This document shows, in pieces, positions 2,465 to 48,094 of a stretch of DNA of 64,000 nucleotides. Made by a program: the position numbers and the translations under genes. The stretch is from Mobula hypostoma. Lineage: Eukaryota. Each line of letters opens with the position of its first letter. Positions within the stretch are counted from its first letter, which is position 1. Under the pieces are notes generated by a model that saw nothing but the letters and a program-made list of their open reading frames with translations, had not been told where the DNA came from and did no database searches. Where the stretch lies: contig NC_086097.1 of NCBI RefSeq assembly GCF_963921235.1, positions 51,090,001-51,154,000 on the forward strand, written 5' to 3'.

Positions 2465-4304
2465 GAGTAATAGAAAAGTACAGCATAGAAACAGGCCCTT
2501 CAGCCCATCCAGTTCATGCTGAACTATTTAAACTGCCTAGTCCCATTGACCTGCACCGGGACCATAGTTCTCTAAAACCCTACCATCCATGTACCTATCC
2601 AGACTTTTCTTAAACGTTGAGATCAAGCTTGCATGCACCACTTGTGCTGGCATTTTATTCCACCATCTTGTAAACCTCTATCAAATCTCTCAATCTTCTA
2701 TGTTCCAAGGAATACAGTCCTGACCTATTCAATCTTTCCTTATAATTCAGGTCCTTCAGACCAGACAACATCCTTGTAAATTTTCTCTGTACTCTTTCAA
2801 CCTTATTTACATCCATTTTTCCAGCTGGTCCAGATCTTGCTGCAATTCATAATAGCCTTTCTCACTGTCCACTACACCCCAACCTTGGTGTCATCCGCAA
2901 GTTTGCTGATCCAATTAACCACACTTCTGTCGGAAAACAGGCTGCTTCAATCCACACTCACCAGATCATTTCTGATACCATCAAAATTGGACTTTCCTGT
3001 GAACCAGACCTATTTTTTTGCATCATTTACTTTGAAACTAATGGTATTGTGATCACTAGAAGCAAAATGTTCCCCTACACAAACTTCTGTCACCTGTCCT
3101 GTCTCATTCCCTGATAGTAGATCAAGTATTACCCAGTCTCTTGTTGGGACATCTACATAGTGAGTAAGGAAACTATCCTGAACACATTTGTCAGACTCTA
3201 TCCCATCTAGTCCTTTTACAGTATGTGAATCCCAGTCAATATGTGGACATTTAAAATCACCTGCTATAACAACCTTATGTTTCTTGCAACAGTCTGCAAT
3301 CTCTCTGCATATTTGTTCCTCTAAATCCCTTGGACTATTGGGTGGTCTGTAATATAACCCAATTAACATAGTCATACCTTTCTTATTTCTCAGTTCCACC
3401 CACAACACCTCACTAGACGAGTTTTCCAGTCTTTTTTGAATGAGCAGGGCTGTGACATTTCCCTGACTAGTAACACCACCCCTCCTCCTTTAATTCCTCT
3501 CACTCTGTCACACCCTAAAACAACTGATCCCCAGAATATTGAGCTGCCAGTTGTGCCCTTTAAGCAAACAAATCTCACTAATGGTTGCAGTATCATAATT
3601 CCAGGTATTGATCTATACCCTGAGCTCATCTGCCTTTGCTTTGAAATACACGCAGCTTAGGACATTAGTGGCACCATGCTCAACCTTTTCATTCCTCACT
3701 TTGTCTTTGGTCTTAACATCTGTCTCCACAACATTTCCACTATCTGTTCAGGTGCTGTGGCTCCCATTCCCCTGCAACTCTAGTTTAAACCCCACTGTGC
3801 AGCATTAACAAACCTTCCCATTAGGATATTAGTCCCCCTCCAGTTCAGGTGCGACTCTTCTGTGCAGGCCCCACCTTCCCTGGAAGTGAGCCCAATGATC
3901 CAAAAATCTGATACCCTCCTCCTATGGCAACTCCATAGCCACGTGTTAAACTGTATGATCTTCCTAGTTCTGGCCTCGCTAGCAAGTAGCGTGGTTGCAA
4001 TCCTGAGAGCACAACCCTGGCGGTCCTGCCCTTTAACTTAGCACCTAATTCTCCAAACTCATTTTGAGAACCTTGTCACTCTTCCTACCTACAGTATGTC
4101 ATTGGTACCCACATGGATCAAGATGGATCAAGGCCTGTTTACCCTGCCCCTGAAGAATGCTAAGGACTCGATCCGAGATGTCCCGGAACTTGGTACCAAG
4201 GCAACATACCATCTGGGAATCTCGTTCTTGTGCATAGAACCTCCTTTCTGTTCCCCTAGCTAACAAACCCCCTATCACCACAGCTCGCCTCTTTTTTCAC
4301 TTCC
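2465..4304 (-). mobile_element. CR1 LINE, internally deleted (3' end, endonuclease region and ORF1 remnant). Continues at about 5313-5540 after a nested insertion
   Basis: ORF 3010..3408(-) has WVELRNKKG...YYRPPNS...GDF...SDHN (CR1 endonuclease). ORF 4099..4281(-) resembles the CR1 ORF1 esterase. A CR1-type 3' end lies near 2470. Confidence 0.85.
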
Positions 4305-5312: not shown

Positions 5313-7032
5313 TTCTGAGTTGCAGAGACCTGACCACTGTGACTCTCCTCTGCTAGGTCAACCCCCCGGCCCCACACCCCCGGCAGTATCCAAAATTGTA
5401 TACCTGTTGTTGAGGGGGATGGCCACCGGGGTACTCTGCGCTGGCTCTTTAACCCCTTTCCTCTTCCTGACTGTCACCCGGTCTCCTGTGCCCTGCACCT
5501 TGGGTGTATCTACCACTCTATATGTCGTATCTATCACTCATTACATTGAGTTCCATTTTCCTTATTAATTCCTATAAACCCTTCAACTTCTGTTAGATTT
5601 TAAAATATTTTTTGTACATTTCCACTAGCTTTTGGGCACTTTATGTTTCATTGTTTCTTCTCATGTTGAAGTTCCTCACCATTAGAAAATAATAAGGAAA
5701 TTATAAAATTTAGGTATGGTGAGTTTTCCATTTGTATCATTGTGGTTGTAGTTTTTTCTGAACGACAGCATTTGAGCTTGTCTCTAATCTGAATCAGGAG
5801 AGAAGATTCACTATCCTTATCTAGTCTGGCCTACTTGTTATTCCAGACTCAGCGGAGGATGGCTAACTCTGATCTCCTGCAGAAGTGACCTGGCTCAGCA
5901 GCGATTGTGAAAAATGAATAACTAATGTAGTCGTTTATCAGGTAGAAAAGCAGCATCCAATTTGCAGGTAACAAAGCGCCACAGACAGGATGTTTGTTAT
6001 GACCCTAGCCTTTTCTTCTTTGAATATTGTTATTTTCACCTTGATAGGCAGCAAATGCCTCAGTTTTAATATCTTACTGGAATATACTTCCAGCATGATG
6101 CTTTCTCGCCACAGTGTAGATTTTGAAATGAAGTTTGTTCCTGCAGTCGTGTGTCTCAGAGGCAAGAGCCAAGGTTATCGTCACAGAACCAAGGATGTCA
6201 CCAGTGTCAGATGTGCATCTGTGCTGCTCTTTCTGGCATTCCATGTTTATTCTGGGCGATGGGGAACTGGCACCCATGGTGCTGATTGGTGCAGATATTA
6301 AAGCAGTAGTAGCAGTAGGAAGTGGGGAATAAAGCAAGAACTGACCAGCTCAGGAAAAGCTGAACAAAAATGACATATTTTGTCGTCAGCTTTGTGAGCA
6401 TCATACTCTATTTTCTGTAATGTTTGTGCATTGGGTTGCTCACATTCTGGACTAGATGGACTTTCATTCTCATTTGTCTATCTTCGTGTGTCATTTTTTT
6501 TCATTGACTCTGTTTTGTTTCTTTGTATCTACTGTGAATGCCTGCAAGAAAATGAATCCCGGCATAGTTTACGGTGACATATACGTACTTTGATAATAAA
6601 TTTGCTTTGAACTTTAAACTTTGAGACAGGATCCTGATTTGCAGAGTTAACAAAGAAGACTGTTTTAGTTTTAACTGGTCTACCTGCTTTTTCGATGTAG
6701 CAGTGCCATCAGGTCAGAGTTTTCTGGAACGCAGGAGTTAAGATTCACTGTTGATGCACGTATTATCAGATGTATACCCTGTAATAACTTACCTTCACTT
6801 GCTTCCTGCCCTGGAACTTTGCTGTTGCCAGGTGAGATTCTGAGCACACGAGAAAGATAATTTTAGAACTCCCTCTTTACATTTTGCTGTTTCCTTTCTC
6901 CTGAAGTTGTGTAACAAATTTGGTGGCAAACTTTTCTGGAGATATTCCAGACAATTGTGTATGTCCTTTTATGATGTTTCAAAGTTTAAAATAATGTGCT
7001 TAAAAACTAAAAAAAAATCCACGATTTCATAT

Positions 7033-7256
7033 ACAAGAGAGAGTCTGCAGATGCTGGAAATTCAAGCATCACACACAAAATGCTGGAGGAACTCAGAGGC
7101 TGCCTAGCCTGCTATGGAAAAGAGTATAGTCTACATTTCGGCCCAAGACCCTTCAGCAGGTTCTGATGAAGGGCCTCGGGCCAAAACATAGACCGTACAT
7201 CTTTTCCATAGATGCTGCCTGGTCTGCTGAGTTCCTCCAGCATCTTGTGTGTGTTG
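7033..7256. mobile_element. Older palindromic Penelope-like mini-element with degenerate hammerhead motifs
   Basis: Imperfect inverted arms centred near 7160. Flanked by ccacgatttcatat (7019-7032) and ccacaatttcatat (7257-7270), a 14-bp TSD with one mismatch. Confidence 0.75.
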
Positions 7257-7958
7257 CCACAATTTCATATGTTGTTAATATAAATTCAGCCATGCGGAGA
7301 AAGGTCTCTATTATTAGGTGAACTTTATGATGATATCCCATTCACGTAGTTTACATAAAGAAGAAGCGGAACAAAGATAGAAAATTGAATCTGCATTACA
7401 TTAAGGTTTGATACGCAAAATCATTTAATGGGGCTATACCACATGCTGATGTTTCATACTTGAATCCAATCCTTTTGACTTTCACCATTCATCTCAAGCT
7501 ACTATTGAGCCAAACCAAACCCTTTTCATGGGTTGTGACACAGCTGCTCTTCATGTGTACCCCCAGTTTGATTTTAGAGACTGGAAAGAAGACTAAAATA
7601 TTCCCGGGCACTGGCTGCAGCAGCACGTTTGAGGTGACAGGAGACCTGAAAGAGAAGGTCCCCAAGAATTTGATAGCTGTTCTTAAGAAGGCCTTAATCA
7701 ACAAAGAAATGAGGCCTACTGGAGGAAGAAACTGAGTTAGGGCAGTTTTCATTACAGCTAAATAATTAACATTCATCATTCCAGTTGTTCACATCTTATC
7801 TAGTATATTATGCAGACCTCGTCACTGGGCTCGTATGGAAACTTGGCTCATTGCCAGCCCCGCTAAAGGCTACGGGACTCAGCAATGAGAAGGCCACCTT
7901 TCATAAGCAATAGGCGTCTAGTATCAGTATGATTTGGGGTTCAGCCGAACAGGAACGT

Positions 7959-17058: not shown

Positions 17059-18000
17059 AATCTCCATAGCAAAAAAAAGGCATAATTGGATTGGAGGGAC
17101 TGCAACGAAGGTTTACCATATTATTTCTTGGGATGTCCCATGTGGAGAAATTAAACAAGACGATCTTGCTCTCTGGTGTGTTTAGAAGATTGTGAAGAGA
17201 GCCCACAGAAAGATACACAGTGTTAACATAGCTTTATAGGGTATAAGTGGACTTGATCTTTCTCCAGGTTGGTGTCTTGAGGACTGCCTACAACCTGGGC
17301 TCAACGTTTAAAGATACTAGGTTGATCATTCCTGACACAGGTGAGACAACGTTTCTTCACTAAAAAGGTAATGAAACTCTGGTACTTTCTACCTGAGGTG
17401 GCCAGGGAGGCAAATTTGCTGCTTATTTCCAAGGTTGGTTGATTAATGTTTGGATAAATACAAGAGATTCTGCAAATGCTGAAAATGTAGCAACCAGAGG
17501 TGGTGGACCTATGGCACGTGTGCCTAAGAGAGCACATGCAAAAATTTGGTTGGCACATGGCATGCAGTGCTGCCCCACATGGAGTGATAATGGATTTATT
17601 TTCCTTTCTTTGATCGTTTATGAATATGCTACATAGCTTCTAATTTCACACTCACATTTCTTACATATGCAATTATTTTATATATGCGTTTATTATGCAG
17701 TTAATGTTATTTTTCAATAGTTTTTTTAAAAGACTAATGCTACTAATTTTGAACAAGATTTTTTAAATGCTTCATTTATTTTGATCTGTCTGTGATCTAC
17801 TTTTGTTAATAGCAAACCAATAAATACCTGTAAGTAAACAATAGGACTCGTCCTTTGTTCTTTAAAAAGTCCACAATTATTGTTACTAATTCATCAATCA
17901 GTGCTAATTTCTGCTCAAAATTACCATAGTATGCGGTGAATTTTGTTGGATTGTCCCGAATATGGGCACATGCTCTCAAAAATACTCACCACCCCTGCTA

Positions 18001-18090
18001 GCAACACACTCAAAATGCTGGAGGAACTCAGCAAGTCAGACATCATCAAAGGAGGGACATTTCTAGCCGAGACCCTTCATCAGGACTGGA
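18001..18090 (-). repeat. Penelope-like terminal fragment with a degenerate hammerhead core
   Basis: The reverse complement reads agtc-ctgatga-agggtctcggcta-gaaa-tgtc. The stem I partner is lost. Confidence 0.65.
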
Positions 18091-32733: not shown

Positions 32734-34042
32734 GTTTGTGCAGGACAATCTAGTTGATTGTAAATAACTTAGAGCTGAGGGCAGCACTAGGGTTACACTG
32801 AATAAAAGTAGATGTGAGGTGAGGTTCATTTCATAGCTCGTCACACCAGATAGCCAGCCACTCCAGTGTTGCTTGGTTGATGTCGAGCAGGTCAGTGTCA
32901 CCTAAATCAGGTGAGAGTGGGCAGTTGCGCAGAACATGTTCAATGTTCTGCACCCTTTCACCACACTCACAGGATTCACTGGTCTTTAAACCCCACTTCA
33001 CCATATTATCTCCCGTCCTACAAACTCCCGCTCTTGCTCTGTTGAGAGTGCACCATTTTCGTCTGTCAAGCAGTGCCCCGTCTGGCAACATTTCTGTGGG
33101 GTCTTGCACTGTATTGTTTGGTGGGGTTCTGGCTTCTGTTTGTTGCCAGAGGTCAATCCTGTAGGGGGGATATTGCGTGTGGTAGTTCCTCGACTATAGC
33201 TTAGCTTTTCCTCGATTTTAGGTGGTTGGAAACTGGCATATGATGATGTAGTGGGTACCATGGATCCGAGTTCTGTTTACCTTTTTCAATTTTTGTTATA
33301 GTGTGTCTTCGAATCTCTGGGGGAGCAATGGTTGCAAGTCTGTAAATGATGTTAGTGGGTGTGGGGCGCAGTGTGCCCGTGATTATTCGGCAGGCTTTGT
33401 TAAGCAATGGGTCTGTTTTCTTCACATGGGCTGATCTGCCCCACACAGGTGCACAGTATTCTGCAGGTGCATAGCAGAGTGCTAGGGCAGTTGATCTAAG
33501 TGTGTGAGCATTAGCTCCCCATTTCGTGCCTGCTAATTTTTCAAGACAGAATTGAGAGAGCCAACTTTCCCTTGGAGTTTTTGGATGTGGGTGGCAAATG
33601 AGAGCGTCCTATCCAGTGTCACGCCCAGGTAAATTGGAGTCGGATGGTGTTGGAGCTCCTTCCCACACCAGAAGATCTTGAGTTTCCAAGCTGCTTCTCG
33701 ATTCCTCAGGTGGAATGGACATACTTGAGTTTTGGATGGATTTGGGTTCAGAGACCATTTTTCATTATACTGCTTCATTGCTTCGAGGATTGCTGTAAGT
33801 TGTACTTCAACTTCTTGGAAGGAGTTAGCTTGTGTTGCTATGCATAGGTCGTCTGCATAGATAAACCTGCGCGTGTTAGGAAAGGTTGGTTGGTCGTTTA
33901 CGTAAACAGTAAATAGTAGAGGTGCCAGGACTGATCCCTATGGTAGTCAACAGGAATTCTGCAGATGCTGGAAATTCAAGCAACATACATCAAAGTTGCT
34001 GGTGAACGCAGCAGGCCAAGCAGCATCTATAGGAAGAGGCGC

Positions 34043-34078
34043 AGTCGACGTTTCAGGCCGAGACCCTTCGTCAGGACT
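34043..34078 (-). ncRNA. Minimal type-I hammerhead ribozyme motif (mirror copy)
   Basis: Exact reverse complement of 34125-34160. Confidence 0.8.
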
Positions 34079-34124
34079 AACTGAAGGAAGAGTAAGGGAT
34101 TCCTTACTCACTCTTCCTTCAGTT

Positions 34125-34160
34125 AGTCCTGACGAAGGGTCTCGGCCTGAAACGTCGACT
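34125..34160 (+). ncRNA. Minimal type-I hammerhead ribozyme motif (predicted cleavage after C34156)
   Basis: AGUC (stem I), CUGACGA, AGG-gucucgg-CCU (stem II), GAAA, CG, UC^, GACU (stem I'). The core is complete, and the loopless palindromic stem III (ACGU) is typical of dimer-dependent PLE hammerheads. Confidence 0.8.
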
Positions 34161-35099
34161 GCGCCTCTTCCTATAGATGCTGCTTGGCCTGCTGCGTTCA
34201 CCAGCAACTTTGATGTATGTCCCTATGGTAGTCCATTCTTTTGTGGACACCACCTACTCTTAATTCCATTCATTTCTACATAAAATCTGCGATTTTCTAG
34301 GAGGCTTCTTATTACTTTGACTGTGGTTTTGTTCTTTAACATTTTAAATAATTTCAGTAGAAGGCCTCTGTGATTCACAGTGTCGTATGCTGCTGTTAAG
34401 TCAATGAATACTGCCTCCGTAATTTGTTCAATTTCAAAGCCATCCTCAATATACTGGGTTAAGTTCAGGACTTGATCGCAGCAAGAGCGGCCTGGCCTGA
34501 ACCCGGCATGGTCTGGTGTTAGAAGATCTTCGACTAAGGGGGATATTCTTTTCAGCATGAATCTCTCGTAGGGTTTACAGAGGGTGCAGAGCAAGGAAAT
34601 CGGTGTAATTTTTAGGAATGTTGGGGTCTTTATTGGGTTTTAGGAGAGCAACAACTTTGGCTCTTCTCCACTTTTTAGGTATTTTTAATGATCTTAGGGA
34701 ACAGTTAAAAAGGAACAGAAGCCCATGGAGCGCTTTAGGTCTAAGATGTTTAAGGAATTCATTAAGAATCCCATCTATGCCAGCAGCTTTGTTGGATTTT
34801 AGCTGTGATACTTCATCCTTCTAGGGTGAGAGGTGGGAAGTTGTTATTCCCGTTTGAGAGAGCTGACTCCATCTCCTGATGTTGCTTTTTCTTTTGCCTC
34901 CGTTCCTTGTTATTTGGTTGACCATGTGAGGTGTTATCACTAGAATGTTTATGACTTTAGAACTCAAGTGACCAGGCAGCCTTCTGTTGGAAACGTTCCT
35001 CCTTCCTCAGCACCTTGTTCTGTAGCTAAGAACATGGGCAGAAGGCTTGCTCATAGGATTCAGGTTAAGGTGTTGCACTTAAAACAGAAAGCAGTTCCT

Positions 35100-44766: not shown

Positions 44767-45035
44767 GTAAGTGTTCTTCAGATTCTCTTGTGTTCTAGTA
44801 CAATTGACTATTGCTGGGACAGATTGTTTTCATCCTAGTACAAAACCATTACCAACAGCTTTAAGCTAATGATGCAGAATGTTTCTGCACAATCTTTGTC
44901 AATGAAGTATTATGGTTTAGATTTGAATTACCTCATTATGTGACCAGATATCATGATTTAACTAATTAGATTATCAACTTTCATATGCAAGGTTGTAGGC
45001 TCTGGCTCAGCAAAAAAAAAGTTTCTGTGGAGAAG

Positions 45036-45372
45036 CACACATCAAAGTTGCTGGTGAACGCAGCAGGTCAGGCAGCATCTCTAGGAAGAGGTACAGTCGA
45101 CGTTTCAGGCCGAGACCCTTCGTCAGGACTAACTGAAGAAAGAGCTAGTAAGAGATTTAAAAGTGGGAGGGGGAGATCGAAAATGATAGGAGAAGACAGG
45201 AGGGGGAGGGATGGAGCCAAGAGCTGGACAGGTGATAGGCAAAAGGGATATGAGAGGATCATGGGACAGGAGGTCCGGGGAAAAAGAAAAGGGGGAGGGG
45301 GGGAAAAACCGAGAGGATGGGCGAGGGGTATAGTCAGAGGGACAGAGGGAGAAAAAGGAGAGAGAGAGAGAA
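45036..45372 (-). mobile_element. Penelope-like element terminal segment (longer, non-palindromic copy)
   Basis: The first ~110 bp are nearly identical to arm 33983-34093, then the copy continues into a purine-rich (+) region. Confidence 0.8.
45095..45130 (-). ncRNA. Minimal type-I hammerhead ribozyme motif, third intact copy
   Basis: The reverse complement is agtc-ctgacga-agggtctcggcct-gaaa-cgtc-gact, identical to 34125-34160. Confidence 0.8.
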
Positions 45373-45404
45373 ATAATCTGCTCTGCTTCTAAAATCCTAT
45401 GTAC

Positions 45405-48094
45405 CAATGTGATTAACACAATAGAAAGGAAGGACATAAGCCGGGAAGATGTGGAATCGATATGGGTAGAGCTGCGTAACACTAAGGGGCAGAAAACGCT
45501 GGTGGGAGTTGTGTACAGGCCACCTAACAGTAGTAGTGAGGTCGGAGATGGTATTAAACAGGAAATTAGAAATGTGTGCAATAAAGGAACAGCAGTTATA
45601 ATGGGTGACTTCAATCTACATGTAGATTGGGTGAACCAAATTGGTAAAGGTGCTGAGGAAGAGGATTTCTTGGAATGTATGCGGGATGATTTTTTGAACC
45701 GACATGTCGAGGAACCAACTAGAGAGCAGGCTATTCTAGACTGGGTTTTGAGCAATGAGGAAGGGTTAATTAGCAATCTTGTCGTGAGAGGCCCCTTGGG
45801 TAAGAGTGACCATAATATGGTGGAATTCTTCATTAAGATGGAGAGTGAGATAGTTAATTCAGAAACAAAGGTTCTGAACTTAAAGAGGGGTAACTTTGAA
45901 GGTATGAGACGTGAATTAGCTAAGATAGACTGGCAAATGACACTTAAAGGATTGACGGTGGATATGCAATGGCAAGCATTTAAGGATTGTATGGATGAAC
46001 TACAACAATTGTTCATCCCAGTTTGGCAAAAGAATAAATCAAGGAAGGTAGTGCACCCGTGGCTGACAAGAGAAATTAGGAATAGTATCAATTCCAAAGA
46101 AGAAGCATACAAATTAGCCAGAAAAAGTGGCTCACCTGAGGACTGGGAGAAATTCAGAGTTCAGCAGACGAGGGCAAAGGGCTTAATTAGGAAGGGGAAA
46201 AAAGATTGTGAGAGAAAACTGGCAGGGAACATAAAAACTGACTGTAAAAGCTTTTATAGATACGTAAAAAGGAAAAGACTGGTAAAGACAAATGTAGGTC
46301 CCCTACAGACAGAAACAGGTGAATTGATTATGGGGAGCAAGGACATGGCAGACCAATTGAATAATTACTTTGGTTCTGTCTTCACTAAGGAGGACATAAA
46401 TAATCTTCCAGAAATAGTAGGGGACAGAGGGTCCAATGAGATGGAGGAACTGAGCGAAATACATGTTAGTAGGGAAGTGGTGGTGGGTAAATTGAAGTGA
46501 TTAAAGGCAGATAAATCCCCAGGGCCAGATGGTCTGCATCCCAGAGTGCTTAAGGAAGTAGCCCAAGAAATAGTGGATGCATTAGTGATAATTTTTCAAA
46601 ACTCGTTAGGTTCTGGACTAGTTCCTGAGGATTGGAGGGTGGCTAATGTAACCCCACTTTTTAAAAAAGGAGGGAGAGAGAAACCGGGGAATTATAGACC
46701 GGTTAGCCTAACGTCGGTGGTGGGGAAACTGCTGGAGTCAGTTATCAAAGATGTGATAACAGCACATTTGGAAAGCGGTGAAGTCATCGGACAAAGTCAG
46801 CATGGATTTGTGAAAGGAAAATCATGTCTGATGAATCTCATAGAATTTTTTGAGGATGTAACTAGTAGAGTGGATAGGGGAGAACCAGTGGATGTGGTAT
46901 ATTTGGATTTTCAAAAGGCTTTTGACAAGGTCCCACACAGGAGATTAGTGTGCAAACTTAAAGCACACGGTATTGGGGGTAAGGTACTGATGTGGATAGA
47001 GAATTGGTTAGCAGACAGGAAGCAAAGAGTGGGAATAAACGGGACCTTTTCAGAATGGCAGGCAGTGACTAGTGGGGTACCGCAAGGCTCAGTGCTGGGA
47101 CCCCAGTTGTTTACAATATATATTAATGACTTGGATGAGGGAATTAAATGCAGCATCTCCAAGTTTGCGGATGACACGAAGCTGGGCGGCAGTGTTAGCT
47201 GTGAGGAGGATGCTAAGAGGATGCAGGGTGACTTGGATAGGTTGGGTGAGTGGGCAAATTCATGGCAGATGCAATTTAATGTGGATAAATGTGAAGTTAT
47301 CCACTTTGGTGGCAAAAATAGGAAAACAGATTATTATCTGAATGGTGGCCGATTAGGAGAAGGGGAAGTACAACGAGACCTGGGTGTCATTATACACTAG
47401 TCATTGAAAGTGGGCATGCAGGTACAGCAGGCAGTGAAAAAGGCGAATGGTATGCTGGCATTTATAGCGAGAGGATTCAAGTACAGGAGCAGGGAGGTAC
47501 TACTGCAGTTGTACAAGGCCTTGGTGAGACCACACCTGGCGTATTGTGTGCAGTCTTGGTCCCCTAATCTGAGGAAAGACATCCTTGCCATAGAGGGAGT
47601 ACAAAGAAGGTTCACCAGATTGATTCCTGGGATGGCAGGACTTTCATATGAAGATAGACTGGATGAACTGGGCTTGTACTCGTTGGAATTTAGAAGATTG
47701 AGGGGGGATCTGATTGAAACGTATAAAATCCTAAAGGGATTGGACAGGCTAGATGCAGGAAGATTGTTCCCGATGTTGGGGAAGTCCAGAACGAGGGGTC
47801 ACAGTTTGAGGATAAAGGGGAAGCCTTTTAGGACTGAGATTAGGAAAAACTTCTTCACACAGAGAGTGGTGAATCTGTGGAATTCTCTGCCACAGGAAAC
47901 AGTTGAGGCCAGTTCATTGGCTATATTTAAGAGGGAGTTAGATATGGCCCTTGTGGCTACGGGGATCAGGGAGTATGGAGGGGAGGCTAGTACAGGGTTC
48001 TGAGTTGGATGATCAGCCATGATCATACTGAATGGCGGTGCAGGCTCGAAGGGCCGAATGGCTTACTCCTGCACCTATTTTCTGTGTTTCTATG
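45405..48094 (+). mobile_element. Young CR1 LINE with near-complete ORF2 (part of endonuclease plus RT) broken by two nonsense codons
   Basis: ORFs 45409..46500, 46546..47400 and 47404..48003 are in one frame, separated only by TGA (46498-46500) and TAG (47398-47400). Ends in a tttctatg tail. Confidence 0.95.

What the first reader, a model, noticed from the sequence alone, without database searches (positions are those of the whole stretch)
33949..34220. Mobile palindromic cassette carrying two back-to-back hammerhead ribozyme motifs
Seen: a 272-bp non-coding insertion with a clean 13-bp TSD. It consists of two perfectly inverted 111-bp arms with a 16-nt spacer, plus a 34-nt unpaired extension on the left. 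Each arm carries a complete hammerhead core (AGUC/CUGACGA/stem II/GAAA/CGUC^/GACU), so a transcript from either strand contains one sense ribozyme and its exact antisense. Known: Penelope-like elements and retrozymes carry minimal type-I hammerheads with a loopless palindromic stem III that generally cleave as dimers, and they are usually described in tandem direct repeats. Inference: this inverted, ORF-less, TSD-flanked unit is either a self-contained non-autonomous retroelement or a stereotyped product of PLE integration by fold-back cDNA synthesis. Zero mismatches between the arms imply a very recent insertion or conversion.
Basis: partly seen in the sequence, partly recalled or inferred. 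Interest (0 to 1): 0.85.

Follow-up and report, generated by a model that had tools for sequence, protein, structure and literature searches.

The report
Truncated Penelope-like retrotransposon inserted as inverted pair
The 272-base palindrome is a single, very recent, heavily shortened insertion of an abundant Penelope-like retrotransposon that landed as two head-to-head copies, a known habit of these elements, and its hammerhead motifs are simply part of the element's tail end.

Summary
In detail: 114-nt inverted arms, a 34-nt one-sided extension and a 14-bp target duplication. It is not a separate cassette. The arms are the last ~114-148 nt of an autonomous Penelope-like element (PLE). One copy has a 1,092-codon open frame with RT and GIY-YIG matches, both below Pfam's cut-offs, followed by a 3' UTR, a minimal hammerhead and the terminus. 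A 32-mer from the arm occurs 40,299 times in this 3.48-Gb genome. Neighbouring copies within 3.5 kb are head-to-head in 14 of 14 cases. Inversion points differ widely among 678 tight hairpins. The 34-nt extension is the PLE "tail". Single copies end with or without it about equally (11 vs 10), but inverted pairs carry it on exactly one end (10 of 10 pairs; 810 matches vs 11 loci). This matches published PLE structure and biochemistry (PMC8557442, PMC11167929). The hammerhead fits the PLE "min-HHR" descriptor but matches no Rfam family and shows no covariation. In a hairpin transcript it would be locked in a duplex of -244 kcal/mol. Verdict: an ordinary PLE insertion product. The strict one-tail rule is a modestly interesting clue to mechanism.

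The parts
33935..33948 (.). Left copy of the target-site duplication (TCCCTATGGTAGTC)
   Evidence: direct repeat D1, 100% identity to 34220-34233.
33949..33982 (-). PLE 'tail': the stretch between the proximal (P) and distal (D) end zones of the element. It is present on this end only.
   Evidence: The same sequence ends about half of single copies (11 D vs 10 P). It sits at both ends of a full-length copy.
33983..34096 (-). Arm 1: 3'-terminal 114 nt of the PLE, sense on the minus strand, continuous with the tail
   Evidence: inverted repeat I1. The homologous 3' region lies downstream of the 1,092-codon frame in L096.
34042..34079 (-). Minimal type-I hammerhead motif of arm 1: helix I, CUGACGA, bulged A, helix II, GAAA, ACGU, C17. 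The predicted cut lies between 34047 and 34046.
   Evidence: exact 31-mer; descriptor: helix I 5 bp, helix II 4 bp, 15.2-16.2 CG. Coordinates of helix I were read off.
34097..34106 (.). Centre or junction between the two head-to-head copies
   Evidence: Centres differ among the 50 of 678 tight-hairpin loci that were listed and among 30 close relatives.
34107..34220 (+). Arm 2: the same 114 nt, sense on the plus strand, ending at the proximal (P) zone ...GATGTATGT without a tail
   Evidence: The P-type end is also seen in 10 single copies.
34124..34161 (+). Minimal hammerhead motif of arm 2. The predicted cut lies between 34156 and 34157.
34220..34233 (.). Right copy of the target-site duplication
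33533..33937 (-). Host: downstream half of an old LINE-type RT frame (carries YADD) that the insertion interrupts
   Evidence: stop-free frame. RVT_1 E 7.1e-08, profile positions 122-204.
34223..34639 (-). Host: upstream half of the same LINE-type RT frame
   Evidence: RVT_1 E 7e-16, profile positions 11-120.

Best explanation
Window 33949-34220 is one insertion event of an abundant, recently active, endonuclease-bearing Penelope-like element (PLE). It is not an element in its own right. Each arm is the last ~114 nt of the PLE, and the minimal hammerhead lies about 64 nt upstream of the proximal end zone. The 34-nt extension is the PLE tail, the stretch between two adjacent zones where copies end (P, proximal, and D, distal). 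Shown here: the arms are homologous to the 3' end of the autonomous element; the family is very abundant; close neighbours are head-to-head; inversion points vary; target duplications are variable, about 10-17 bp; and there is exactly one tail per inverted pair. Inferred mechanism: after a staggered cut, both DNA ends prime reverse transcription, as shown in vitro for an Anolis PLE. One cDNA starts at D and the other at P, probably on the same RNA molecule, because variants are mirrored in both arms. Both cDNAs stop early, here after about 114 nt, and their 3' ends are joined head-to-head with 0-3 nt of overlap. The hammerhead is a passenger in this copy. A transcript of either strand holds one sense motif and its antisense, which pair into a near-perfect 114-bp duplex.
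For: A 32-mer from the arm occurs 40,299 times, with 0 in the control. In a positional sample of 30 matches, most copies continue upstream into PLE sequence rather than into a hairpin. A full-length copy, L096, has a 1,092-codon stop-free frame. [quoted passage not shown] After it come ~300 nt of UTR, the hammerhead, the P zone, the tail and the D zone. The nearest protein-atlas clusters carry RVT_1 plus GIY-YIG (0.86-0.88, a lead only). Of 99 neighbour pairs among the first 100 matches, 14 lie within 3.5 kb, and all 14 are head-to-head. Larger examples include fully symmetric 2.3-kb and 1.8-kb palindromes that contain ORF sequence. There are 678 tight hairpins, and the centres of the 50 loci listed are highly variable. 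Tails: single copies split 11 D, 10 P and 2 truncated earlier, while 10 of 10 inverted pairs are D/P. Of 1,001 tight hairpins, 810 matches have an exact tail motif on one side, and none of the 100 listed matched on both strands. Only 11 loci have tail motifs on both sides, most of them mixed families. Five of five loci without an exact motif had a mutated tail on one side only. Variants are mirrored between the arms: 46 observed, against a mean of 12.5 and a maximum of 23 in 2,000 shuffles. Literature: PLE insertions often have an inverted 5'-truncated copy and a 30-40 bp tail at one end only (PMC8557442, passages). A purified PLE protein cleaves and extends both strands and starts reverse transcription at two adjacent internal sites that bound the tail (PMC11167929, main text).
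Against: Both Pfam domain matches are below the curated cut-offs (23.5 vs 29.6 bits; at most 21.4 vs 22.6), and the PDB sequence search was uninformative. PLE membership therefore rests on domain order, motifs and the structural signatures. The dual-priming-on-one-RNA step is inference. The in vitro paper reports no difference in start site between the strands, which by itself would predict some pairs with two tails or none. Thirty of the 37 hairpins used for the arm-length comparison were chosen by similarity to the window copy. Later deletions at palindrome centres could also distort inner ends. Three independent loci share an odd asymmetric centre, which pure one-off formation does not explain. 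No read or contig bridging this locus could be obtained.
Confidence: 0.8

Rival explanations
1. Same identity (a PLE insertion) but a different mechanism. A single target-primed cDNA starts at D, stalls, snaps back on itself and copies itself to make the second arm.
For: Many pairs are symmetric. The window copy, L088 and L090 have essentially no spacer. Arms are identical at insertion, with 14 of 30 copies showing 0 mismatches in the outer 100 nt. Mirrored variants follow automatically.
Against: A self-templated second arm cannot hold sequence that the first arm lacks. Yet the tail-less arm extends further inward in 12 of 33 hairpins, and by about 480 nt in L084. Self-copying should also run through the tail to the cDNA's 5' end. 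Instead the second arm stops in the same P zone where half of single copies end.
Confidence: 0.15
2. The hairpin is a self-contained, non-autonomous element, a hairpin-shaped SINE or retrozyme relative. It would be transcribed and re-inserted as a unit by the PLE machinery.
For: At least 40 full-length copies at 89-99% identity were returned for the 272-nt query, from 925 first-look candidates. Some centre variants recur in independent loci with different target duplications. The asymmetric GAGTAAATCCC centre occurs in exactly 3 loci. The unit keeps both end zones and the tail.
Against: The one search hits were selected by the query's own architecture. An unbiased census shows 678 tight hairpins against 40,299 arm matches, with very diverse centres spanning several subfamilies. 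Hairpins of every size up to 2.3 kb exist. All shared sequence variants are mirrored in both arms, which straight copying of a hairpin would not produce. No tandem arrays were seen: 0 of 14 close pairs are direct.
Confidence: 0.07
3. It is an assembly or sequencing artefact, a palindromic chimera.
For: PLE tandem and inverted structures are said to trouble assemblies (PMC8557442, passage). No bridging read could be obtained here.
Against: The unit is framed by a clean 14-bp target duplication inside a LINE RT frame that is otherwise continuous. About 1,000 loci have the same design, each with its own flanks, target duplication and degree of decay.
Confidence: 0.01
4. It is a foldback or MITE-type DNA transposon with long terminal inverted repeats.
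For: The structure is palindromic, has no ORF and has a target duplication.
Against: The arms are the 3' end of a retroelement. Target duplications vary from about 10 to 17 bp. The ends are ragged within two zones, and one end has an unpaired 34-47 nt extension. These are features of reverse transcription from a nick, not of transposase cutting.
Confidence: 0.01

Closest known systems
Endonuclease-positive Penelope-like elements (Penelope/Poseidon, Neptune, Nematis type) and their characteristic insertion structure (Craig et al. 2021, PMC8557442; Frangieh et al. 2024, PMC11167929)
   Same: One frame with RT followed by a C-terminal GIY-YIG domain. A hammerhead in the repeat region near the 3' end. 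Strong 5' truncation. An inverted 5'-truncated copy joined head-to-head. A 30-40 bp tail at only one end. Variable target duplications. Ends that fall in two adjacent zones, like the two internal RT start sites mapped in vitro.
   Different: This copy is an extreme miniature. Both copies are cut down to ~114 nt, so nothing but the terminus and the hammerhead remains. In this family the ORF's first ATG lies just downstream of the tail, whereas in the Anolis element the ORF is reported to begin at hammerhead helix II. The clade within PLEs was not determined.
PLE minimal hammerheads, 'min-HHR' (Cervera and de la Pena 2014, PMC4209133)
   Same: Type-I layout and the CUGANGA and GAAA boxes. A short helix I (5 bp here). 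[quoted passage not shown] A palindromic 15.2-16.2 (CG) with no loop 3, so that only a dimer could form helix III. The cleavage triplet is GUC.
   Different: Helix II is 4 bp here, against the 6-8 bp described for Schistosoma and Drosophila. Position 10.1-11.1 is a G-U wobble in the dominant variant, with G-C in a minority. No cleavage data and no covariation are available for this family.
Animal non-LTR retrozymes and Sm-alpha-like hammerhead repeats (PMC7229834, seen only as a search listing and abstract start; bioRxiv 10.64898/2026.07.22.740005, abstract)
   Same: Short non-coding hammerhead-bearing sequences derived from, or related to, PLE repeat regions.
   Different: Retrozymes are tandem direct repeats thought to give circular RNAs. 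Here close neighbours are never direct (0 of 14), and the unit is an inverted pair.
L1 5' inversions by twin priming (recalled, not looked up here)
   Same: Both ends of a staggered break prime reverse transcription, giving an inverted segment within one insertion that is flanked by one target duplication.
   Different: In twin priming the two segments come from different parts of one RNA. Here the two arms are copies of the same part, and they start at two defined neighbouring sites.

Membership tests
EN+ Penelope-like element (parent of the arms) | Reverse transcriptase domain with PLE-type motifs | tested here: inconclusive
   RVT_1 matches residues 583-745 of the 1,092-codon frame at E 5.2e-05, 23.5 bits, below the 29.6 cut-off. 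YIDD is at 738 and DKG at 497. That DKG is PLE-diagnostic is taken from a passage in PMC8557442. The PDB sequence search was uninformative.
EN+ Penelope-like element (parent of the arms) | GIY-YIG endonuclease C-terminal to the RT in the same frame | tested here: inconclusive
   PF01541 matched in 4 of 4 copies tested, at E 0.00032 to 0.0033 and 18.1-21.4 bits, just under the 22.6 cut-off. The match is always near the C-terminus. Atlas neighbours carry RVT_1 plus GIY-YIG (a lead only).
EN+ Penelope-like element (parent of the arms) | Hammerhead motif in the terminal repeat region | tested here: met
   The motif sits about 300 nt after the stop codon and 64 nt before the proximal end zone. It fits the min-HHR descriptor.
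EN+ Penelope-like element (parent of the arms) | Optional 30-40 bp tail at one end of insertions | tested here: met
   Single copies: 11 with tail, 10 without. Inverted pairs: 10 of 10 with exactly one tail. Genome-wide: 810 matches with a tail motif on one side against 11 loci with motifs on both sides; 5 of 5 further loci also had one tail.
EN+ Penelope-like element (parent of the arms) | Inverted 5'-truncated copy adjacent to the 5' end; partial tandems (pLTR) | tested here: met
   14 of 14 close neighbour pairs are head-to-head. Inverted pairs have arms from 114 nt to ~1.4 kb. A partial tandem plus an inverted copy is seen in L087, and read-through from the tail into the ORF start is seen in L067.
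PLE minimal hammerhead (min-HHR) | Conserved core boxes, GUC triplet, short helix I, extra nucleotide between 9 and 10.1, palindromic 15.2-16.2 | tested here: met
   The dominant variants read CUGACGA / A / GGGU-CUCG-GCCU / GAAA / CG / UC. Helix I is 5 bp including one G-U, and helix II is 4 bp.
PLE minimal hammerhead (min-HHR) | G10.1-C11.1 pair | tested here: not met
   The window copy and most of the 144 motif instances have G-U (GCCU). A minority of variants has G-C (GCCC).
PLE minimal hammerhead (min-HHR) | Covariation in helices I and II across copies | tested here: inconclusive
   In the 350 kb held, all convincing instances belong to one young family. Only one-sided changes were seen.
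PLE minimal hammerhead (min-HHR) | Self-cleavage (as a dimer) | not testable with these tools
   This needs in vitro transcription. Published PLE min-HHRs cleave poorly, or only with protein (PMC4209133 passages; PMC11167929 main text).
Rfam hammerhead families | Score at or above the family's gathering threshold | tested here: not met
   There was no hit in the whole window at gathering thresholds. No hammerhead family appeared at E up to 10 on 33850-34320; only sub-threshold miRNA-hairpin models and similar matches were listed.
Non-LTR retrozyme | Tandem direct repeats of a hammerhead-bearing unit | tested here: not met
   None of the 14 close neighbour pairs is in direct orientation. The unit itself is an inverted pair.
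Self-propagating hairpin element (SINE- or MITE-like) | A fixed architecture (same inversion point) inherited by all copies | tested here: not met
   The 50 listed centres, out of 678 tight hairpins, are very diverse. The exception is one asymmetric centre shared by 3 loci.

The most novel reading that the evidence does not exclude
The strict rule of one tail per inverted pair, together with arms that carry the same sequence variants, suggests coordinated priming. A (probably dimeric) PLE particle would use both cut DNA ends to prime on one and the same RNA molecule. One end would start at the distal and the other at the proximal copy of a short repeated start motif (TGTTGYTTGNNTTT, 33 nt apart). 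Inverted dimers would then be the default full product of PLE integration, and single copies would be half-products. A minority of hairpins may afterwards be re-mobilised, because three loci share one odd centre. The roughly 1,000 perfect hairpins and the many longer palindromes could also serve as double-stranded RNA sources against the family.
Probability: 0.35. Interest if true: 0.55.

Novelty: new member of a known kind. Interest (0 to 1): 0.3.

Why it matters
For annotation, it means this palindrome and about a thousand like it should be masked as PLE fragments. They should not be called as miRNA-like hairpins, MITEs or a new ribozyme cassette. For PLE biology, how the tandem and inverted structures and the one-sided tail arise is still described as undefined. 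This genome offers tens of thousands of young insertions, and the rule is nearly absolute in them: 810 matches with a tail motif on one side against at most 11 loci with motifs on both. Single copies, by contrast, use either end zone about equally. That constrains models of integration and can be tested directly in the published in vitro system.

Tried and rejected
- Rfam at gathering thresholds over the window, and at E up to 10 over the locus, gave no hammerhead family. The miRNA-model hits (best 57.5 bits against a gathering score of 91) are generic matches to a long perfect hairpin. The UnaL2 3'-element hit on the tail (15.9 bits, E 4.5) is not significant.
- A 92-nt query made of the tail plus the outer arm found nothing in the genome, because very common words are skipped. 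This is uninformative.
- I first read the ~345-nt relatives of the copy at 45031-45420 as a separate SINE-like 'long form'. I rejected this once copies were seen to continue upstream into the PLE 3' UTR and ORF. The apparent common 5' end was only the end of my query.
- I first read the shared centre among the 30 best hits as proof of hairpin masters. The unbiased census showed that this was largely selection by the query.
- Sequencing runs: no listed holder is on record as RNA. Laying four runs gave only short repeat contigs from thousands of paralogues. None spanned the stretch, so neither the assembly question, nor empty sites in other organisms, nor expression could be addressed.
- Covariation in the hammerhead stems could not be assessed, because the 350 kb held contain essentially one family.
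- The PDB sequence search with the full frame gave one meaningless hit at E 0.32.
- Pfam on a 256-aa RT fragment and on a 544-aa frame of L086 gave nothing.
- A look-up of earlier findings for this genome returned nothing relevant.
It was shortened and accepted.
Full report
**Observation.**

The sequence is as described. One search reports inverted arms at 33983-34096 and 34107-34220 (114 nt, 99% complementary, 10 nt apart). It also reports a 14-nt direct repeat TCCCTATGGTAGTC at 33935-33948 and 34220-33. The 34 nt at 33949-33982 have no counterpart on the right. The 31-nt hammerhead core string is present once on each strand in the unit and a third time at 45096-45126 (-); none is expected by chance. 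Folded as RNA, the unit gives -244.3 kcal/mol, z = -32.8 against shuffles. The insertion sits inside an old minus-strand LINE-type RT frame. RVT_1 profile positions 11-120 lie upstream of it and 122-204 downstream.

**What the arms are.**

The window lies in a 3.48-Gb, 200-contig assembly. The 272-nt unit retrieves at least 40 full-length relatives at 89-99% identity, each with its own flanks and a target duplication of about 10-17 bp.

That sample is biased by the query, so I took an unbiased one. A 32-mer from the inner part of the arm occurs 40,299 times, with 0 in the control. In the first 30 matches along contig 1, nearly all copies continue upstream into a pyrimidine-rich region rather than into a hairpin; two loci are tight hairpins. 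Following larger inverted pairs led to coding sequence.

One copy, L096, has a 1,092-codon stop-free frame. It carries:
- an RVT_1 match at E 5.2e-05 (below the cut-off);
- YIDD at residue 738 and DKG at 497;
- a C-terminal GIY-YIG match, which was E 0.00032-0.0033 in four copies, just below the cut-off.

A protein search of the genome gave 241,722 first-look candidates. The 101 that were scored matched at about 95-96% identity, many with long open frames. After the stop codon come about 300 nt of UTR, the hammerhead, 64 nt, the proximal end zone P (...GATGTATGT), the tail, and the distal end zone D (...CCTGTT, up to GTTTGCGTTTAAA). The full-length copy carries the same 44-nt tail sequence at its 5' end (100% identity) and has its own target duplication. 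The first ATG of the frame follows this 5' tail. The nearest protein-atlas clusters combine RVT_1, GIY-YIG and an animal HTH domain (0.86-0.88, a lead only).

The arms are therefore the 3' terminus of an autonomous, endonuclease-bearing Penelope-like element.

**Architecture in the family.**

Among the first 100 exact matches on contig 1 the mean spacing is 95 kb. Fourteen neighbour pairs lie within 3.5 kb, and all 14 are minus-then-plus, that is, head-to-head. None is tandem or tail-to-tail. Inverted pairs come in all sizes:
- arms of 114 nt, as in the window;
- arms of 214-579 nt;
- arms of 1.0-1.4 kb;
- two fully symmetric palindromes of 2.3 and 1.8 kb that contain ORF sequence.

Inverted pairs with a target duplication and a one-sided extension are also found next to the relatives of the window's third copy, for example L042 and L045. 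An older, diverged one lies in the window itself at 7033-7256, with target duplication 7019-7032 / 7257-7270.

Tight hairpins, defined as at most 40 nt between the two inner motifs, number 678. Their centres are very diverse and span several subfamilies.

**The tail.**

In the positional sample, single copies end in the D zone (with tail) 11 times, in the P zone (without tail) 10 times, and earlier twice. All 10 inverted pairs with two classifiable ends are D/P.

Genome-wide:
- 1,001 tight hairpins have both outer anchors.
- 810 matches have an exact 19-nt tail motif on one side, and none of the 100 listed matched on both strands.
- Only 11 loci have tail motifs on both sides, and most of those pair different families.
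- Five of five loci that lacked an exact motif turned out to have a point-mutated tail on one side only.
- All 30 close relatives of the window copy have the tail on one side only.

If the two ends chose P or D independently at about 50:50, a quarter of pairs should have two tails. They do not.

**Same template for both arms.**

Among 30 relatives, departures from the majority base are mirrored in both arms 46 times, against a mean of 12.5 and a maximum of 23 in 2,000 shuffles. Every shared polymorphic site is mirrored, and 14 of 30 copies have no arm mismatch in the outer 100 nt.

**Which arm is longer.**

With the tailed arm placed on the left, the tailed arm reaches further inward in 13 of 33 classifiable hairpins, the two arms are equal in 8, and the tail-less arm is longer in 12. 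Four of the 37 examined could not be classified. Junctions mostly show 0-3 nt assignable to either arm. In L084 the tail-less copy is about 480 nt longer. This argues against a simple snap-back of a tail-initiated first strand. Two caveats apply: 30 of the 37 hairpins were chosen by similarity to the window copy, and palindrome centres can suffer later deletions.

**Comparison with what is known.**

Craig et al. 2021 (PMC8557442, passages read) state four things about PLE insertions:
- they are strongly 5'-truncated;
- they often have an inverted 5'-truncated copy adjacent at the 5' end;
- they often carry a 30-40 bp tail at only one end;
- hammerheads typically lie in the pseudo-LTRs.

They call the cause of these structures undefined.

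Frangieh et al. 2024 (PMC11167929, main text read) show that a purified Anolis PLE protein cleaves and extends both DNA strands. Reverse transcription starts at two adjacent internal sites whose interval is the tail. The protein is predicted to dimerise. The hammerhead is protein-assisted and dispensable for insertion in vitro.

The window motif fits that descriptor except for a G-U at 10.1-11.1 and a 4-bp helix II. Rfam has no matching family.

**Mechanism proposed.**

The identity is shown: one PLE insertion with target duplication, one tail, and two head-to-head truncated copies of the same template. The mechanism is inferred as follows. Both cut ends prime on one RNA, one in the D zone and one in the P zone. 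The two zones share a 14-nt motif (11 of 14 identical, offset 33 nt; 46 of 2,000 shuffles do as well). Both cDNAs end early, and their ends are joined. The snap-back alternative is less likely, though not excluded.

The hammerheads are passengers here. Each strand's transcript has one sense motif, which needs a second sense copy to form helix III, and it is paired to its antisense in a 114-bp duplex.

**What does not fit.**

The asymmetric centre GAGTAAATCCC occurs in exactly three loci with different target duplications, and a few other centres recur. Occasional re-mobilisation of an existing hairpin would explain this. In that case cDNAs from both start zones would copy the sense arm and then anneal through the palindrome. 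The same process would also keep the arms identical. This is not tested.

**Limits.**

- No read bridges the locus.
- No RNA evidence is available.
- Both domain matches are below Pfam's cut-offs.
- The PLE clade was not determined.
- Supplements of the cited papers were not consulted.

**Verdict.**

This is a real, very young insertion, but an ordinary one for a PLE-rich genome. Interest is low to moderate. Its main value is the near-absolute one-tail rule as a constraint on how PLEs integrate.

Noticed in passing
window 7033-7256 (target duplication 7019-7032 / 7257-7270): A second, older hairpin of a diverged subfamily of the same repeat. It has a 14-nt target duplication (13 of 14 identical), the tail again on one side only, and an inversion point right at the CTGATGA box. 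That is a different place from the copy under study.
   Followed up: partly
window 45031-~45390 (-) and 18000-18087 (-): Two further copies of the PLE 3' region without an inverted partner. The first is a ~350-nt 5'-truncated copy that ends in the proximal zone. The second is a short decayed fragment.
   Followed up: partly
L096 (G000:C76:2302700-2306700), sense = minus strand: A full-length PLE copy carries the same 44-nt tail sequence at both ends (100% identity) inside a target duplication ATTAGGAAAG. The first ATG of the 1,092-codon frame follows the 5' tail. The tail therefore behaves like a terminal redundancy.
   Followed up: partly
3' terminus of the element, e.g. L096 sense 3822-3896; window 33949-33990 (-): The two zones where copies end (P and D) share a 14-nt motif, TGTTGCTTGAATTT / TGTTGTTTGCGTTT (11 of 14 identical, 33 nt apart). 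The significance is modest: 46 of 2,000 shuffles reach it.
   Followed up: partly
L003, L006, L009 (G000:C45:7320820, C66:33138210, C45:4810430): Exactly three loci in the genome share the asymmetric hairpin centre GAGTAAATCCC, yet they have different flanks and target duplications. This hints that an existing hairpin can occasionally be copied again.
   Followed up: partly
window 33533-33937 and 34223-34639 (-): The host of the insertion is an old LINE-type RT pseudogene. The target duplication lies in the conserved GLPQGS region, where the host reads TAG instead of a glutamine codon.
   Followed up: partly
window 33917-34245, runs X1, X5, X11 and X9: Contigs at 90% likeness or more to the PLE terminus reach summed depths of 10^5-10^7, against 10^2-10^5 (mostly 10^3-10^4 in X1) on the LINE flanks. 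This holds in runs labelled as three different organisms and in one run guessed to be RNA. The family is therefore shared by relatives. Expression cannot be judged from these data.
   Followed up: no
window 34051-34152, both strands: Several Rfam miRNA precursor models score 30-57 bits on the hairpin centre, all well below their gathering scores. Such PLE hairpins could be mistaken for miRNA genes by hairpin-based predictors.
   Followed up: no
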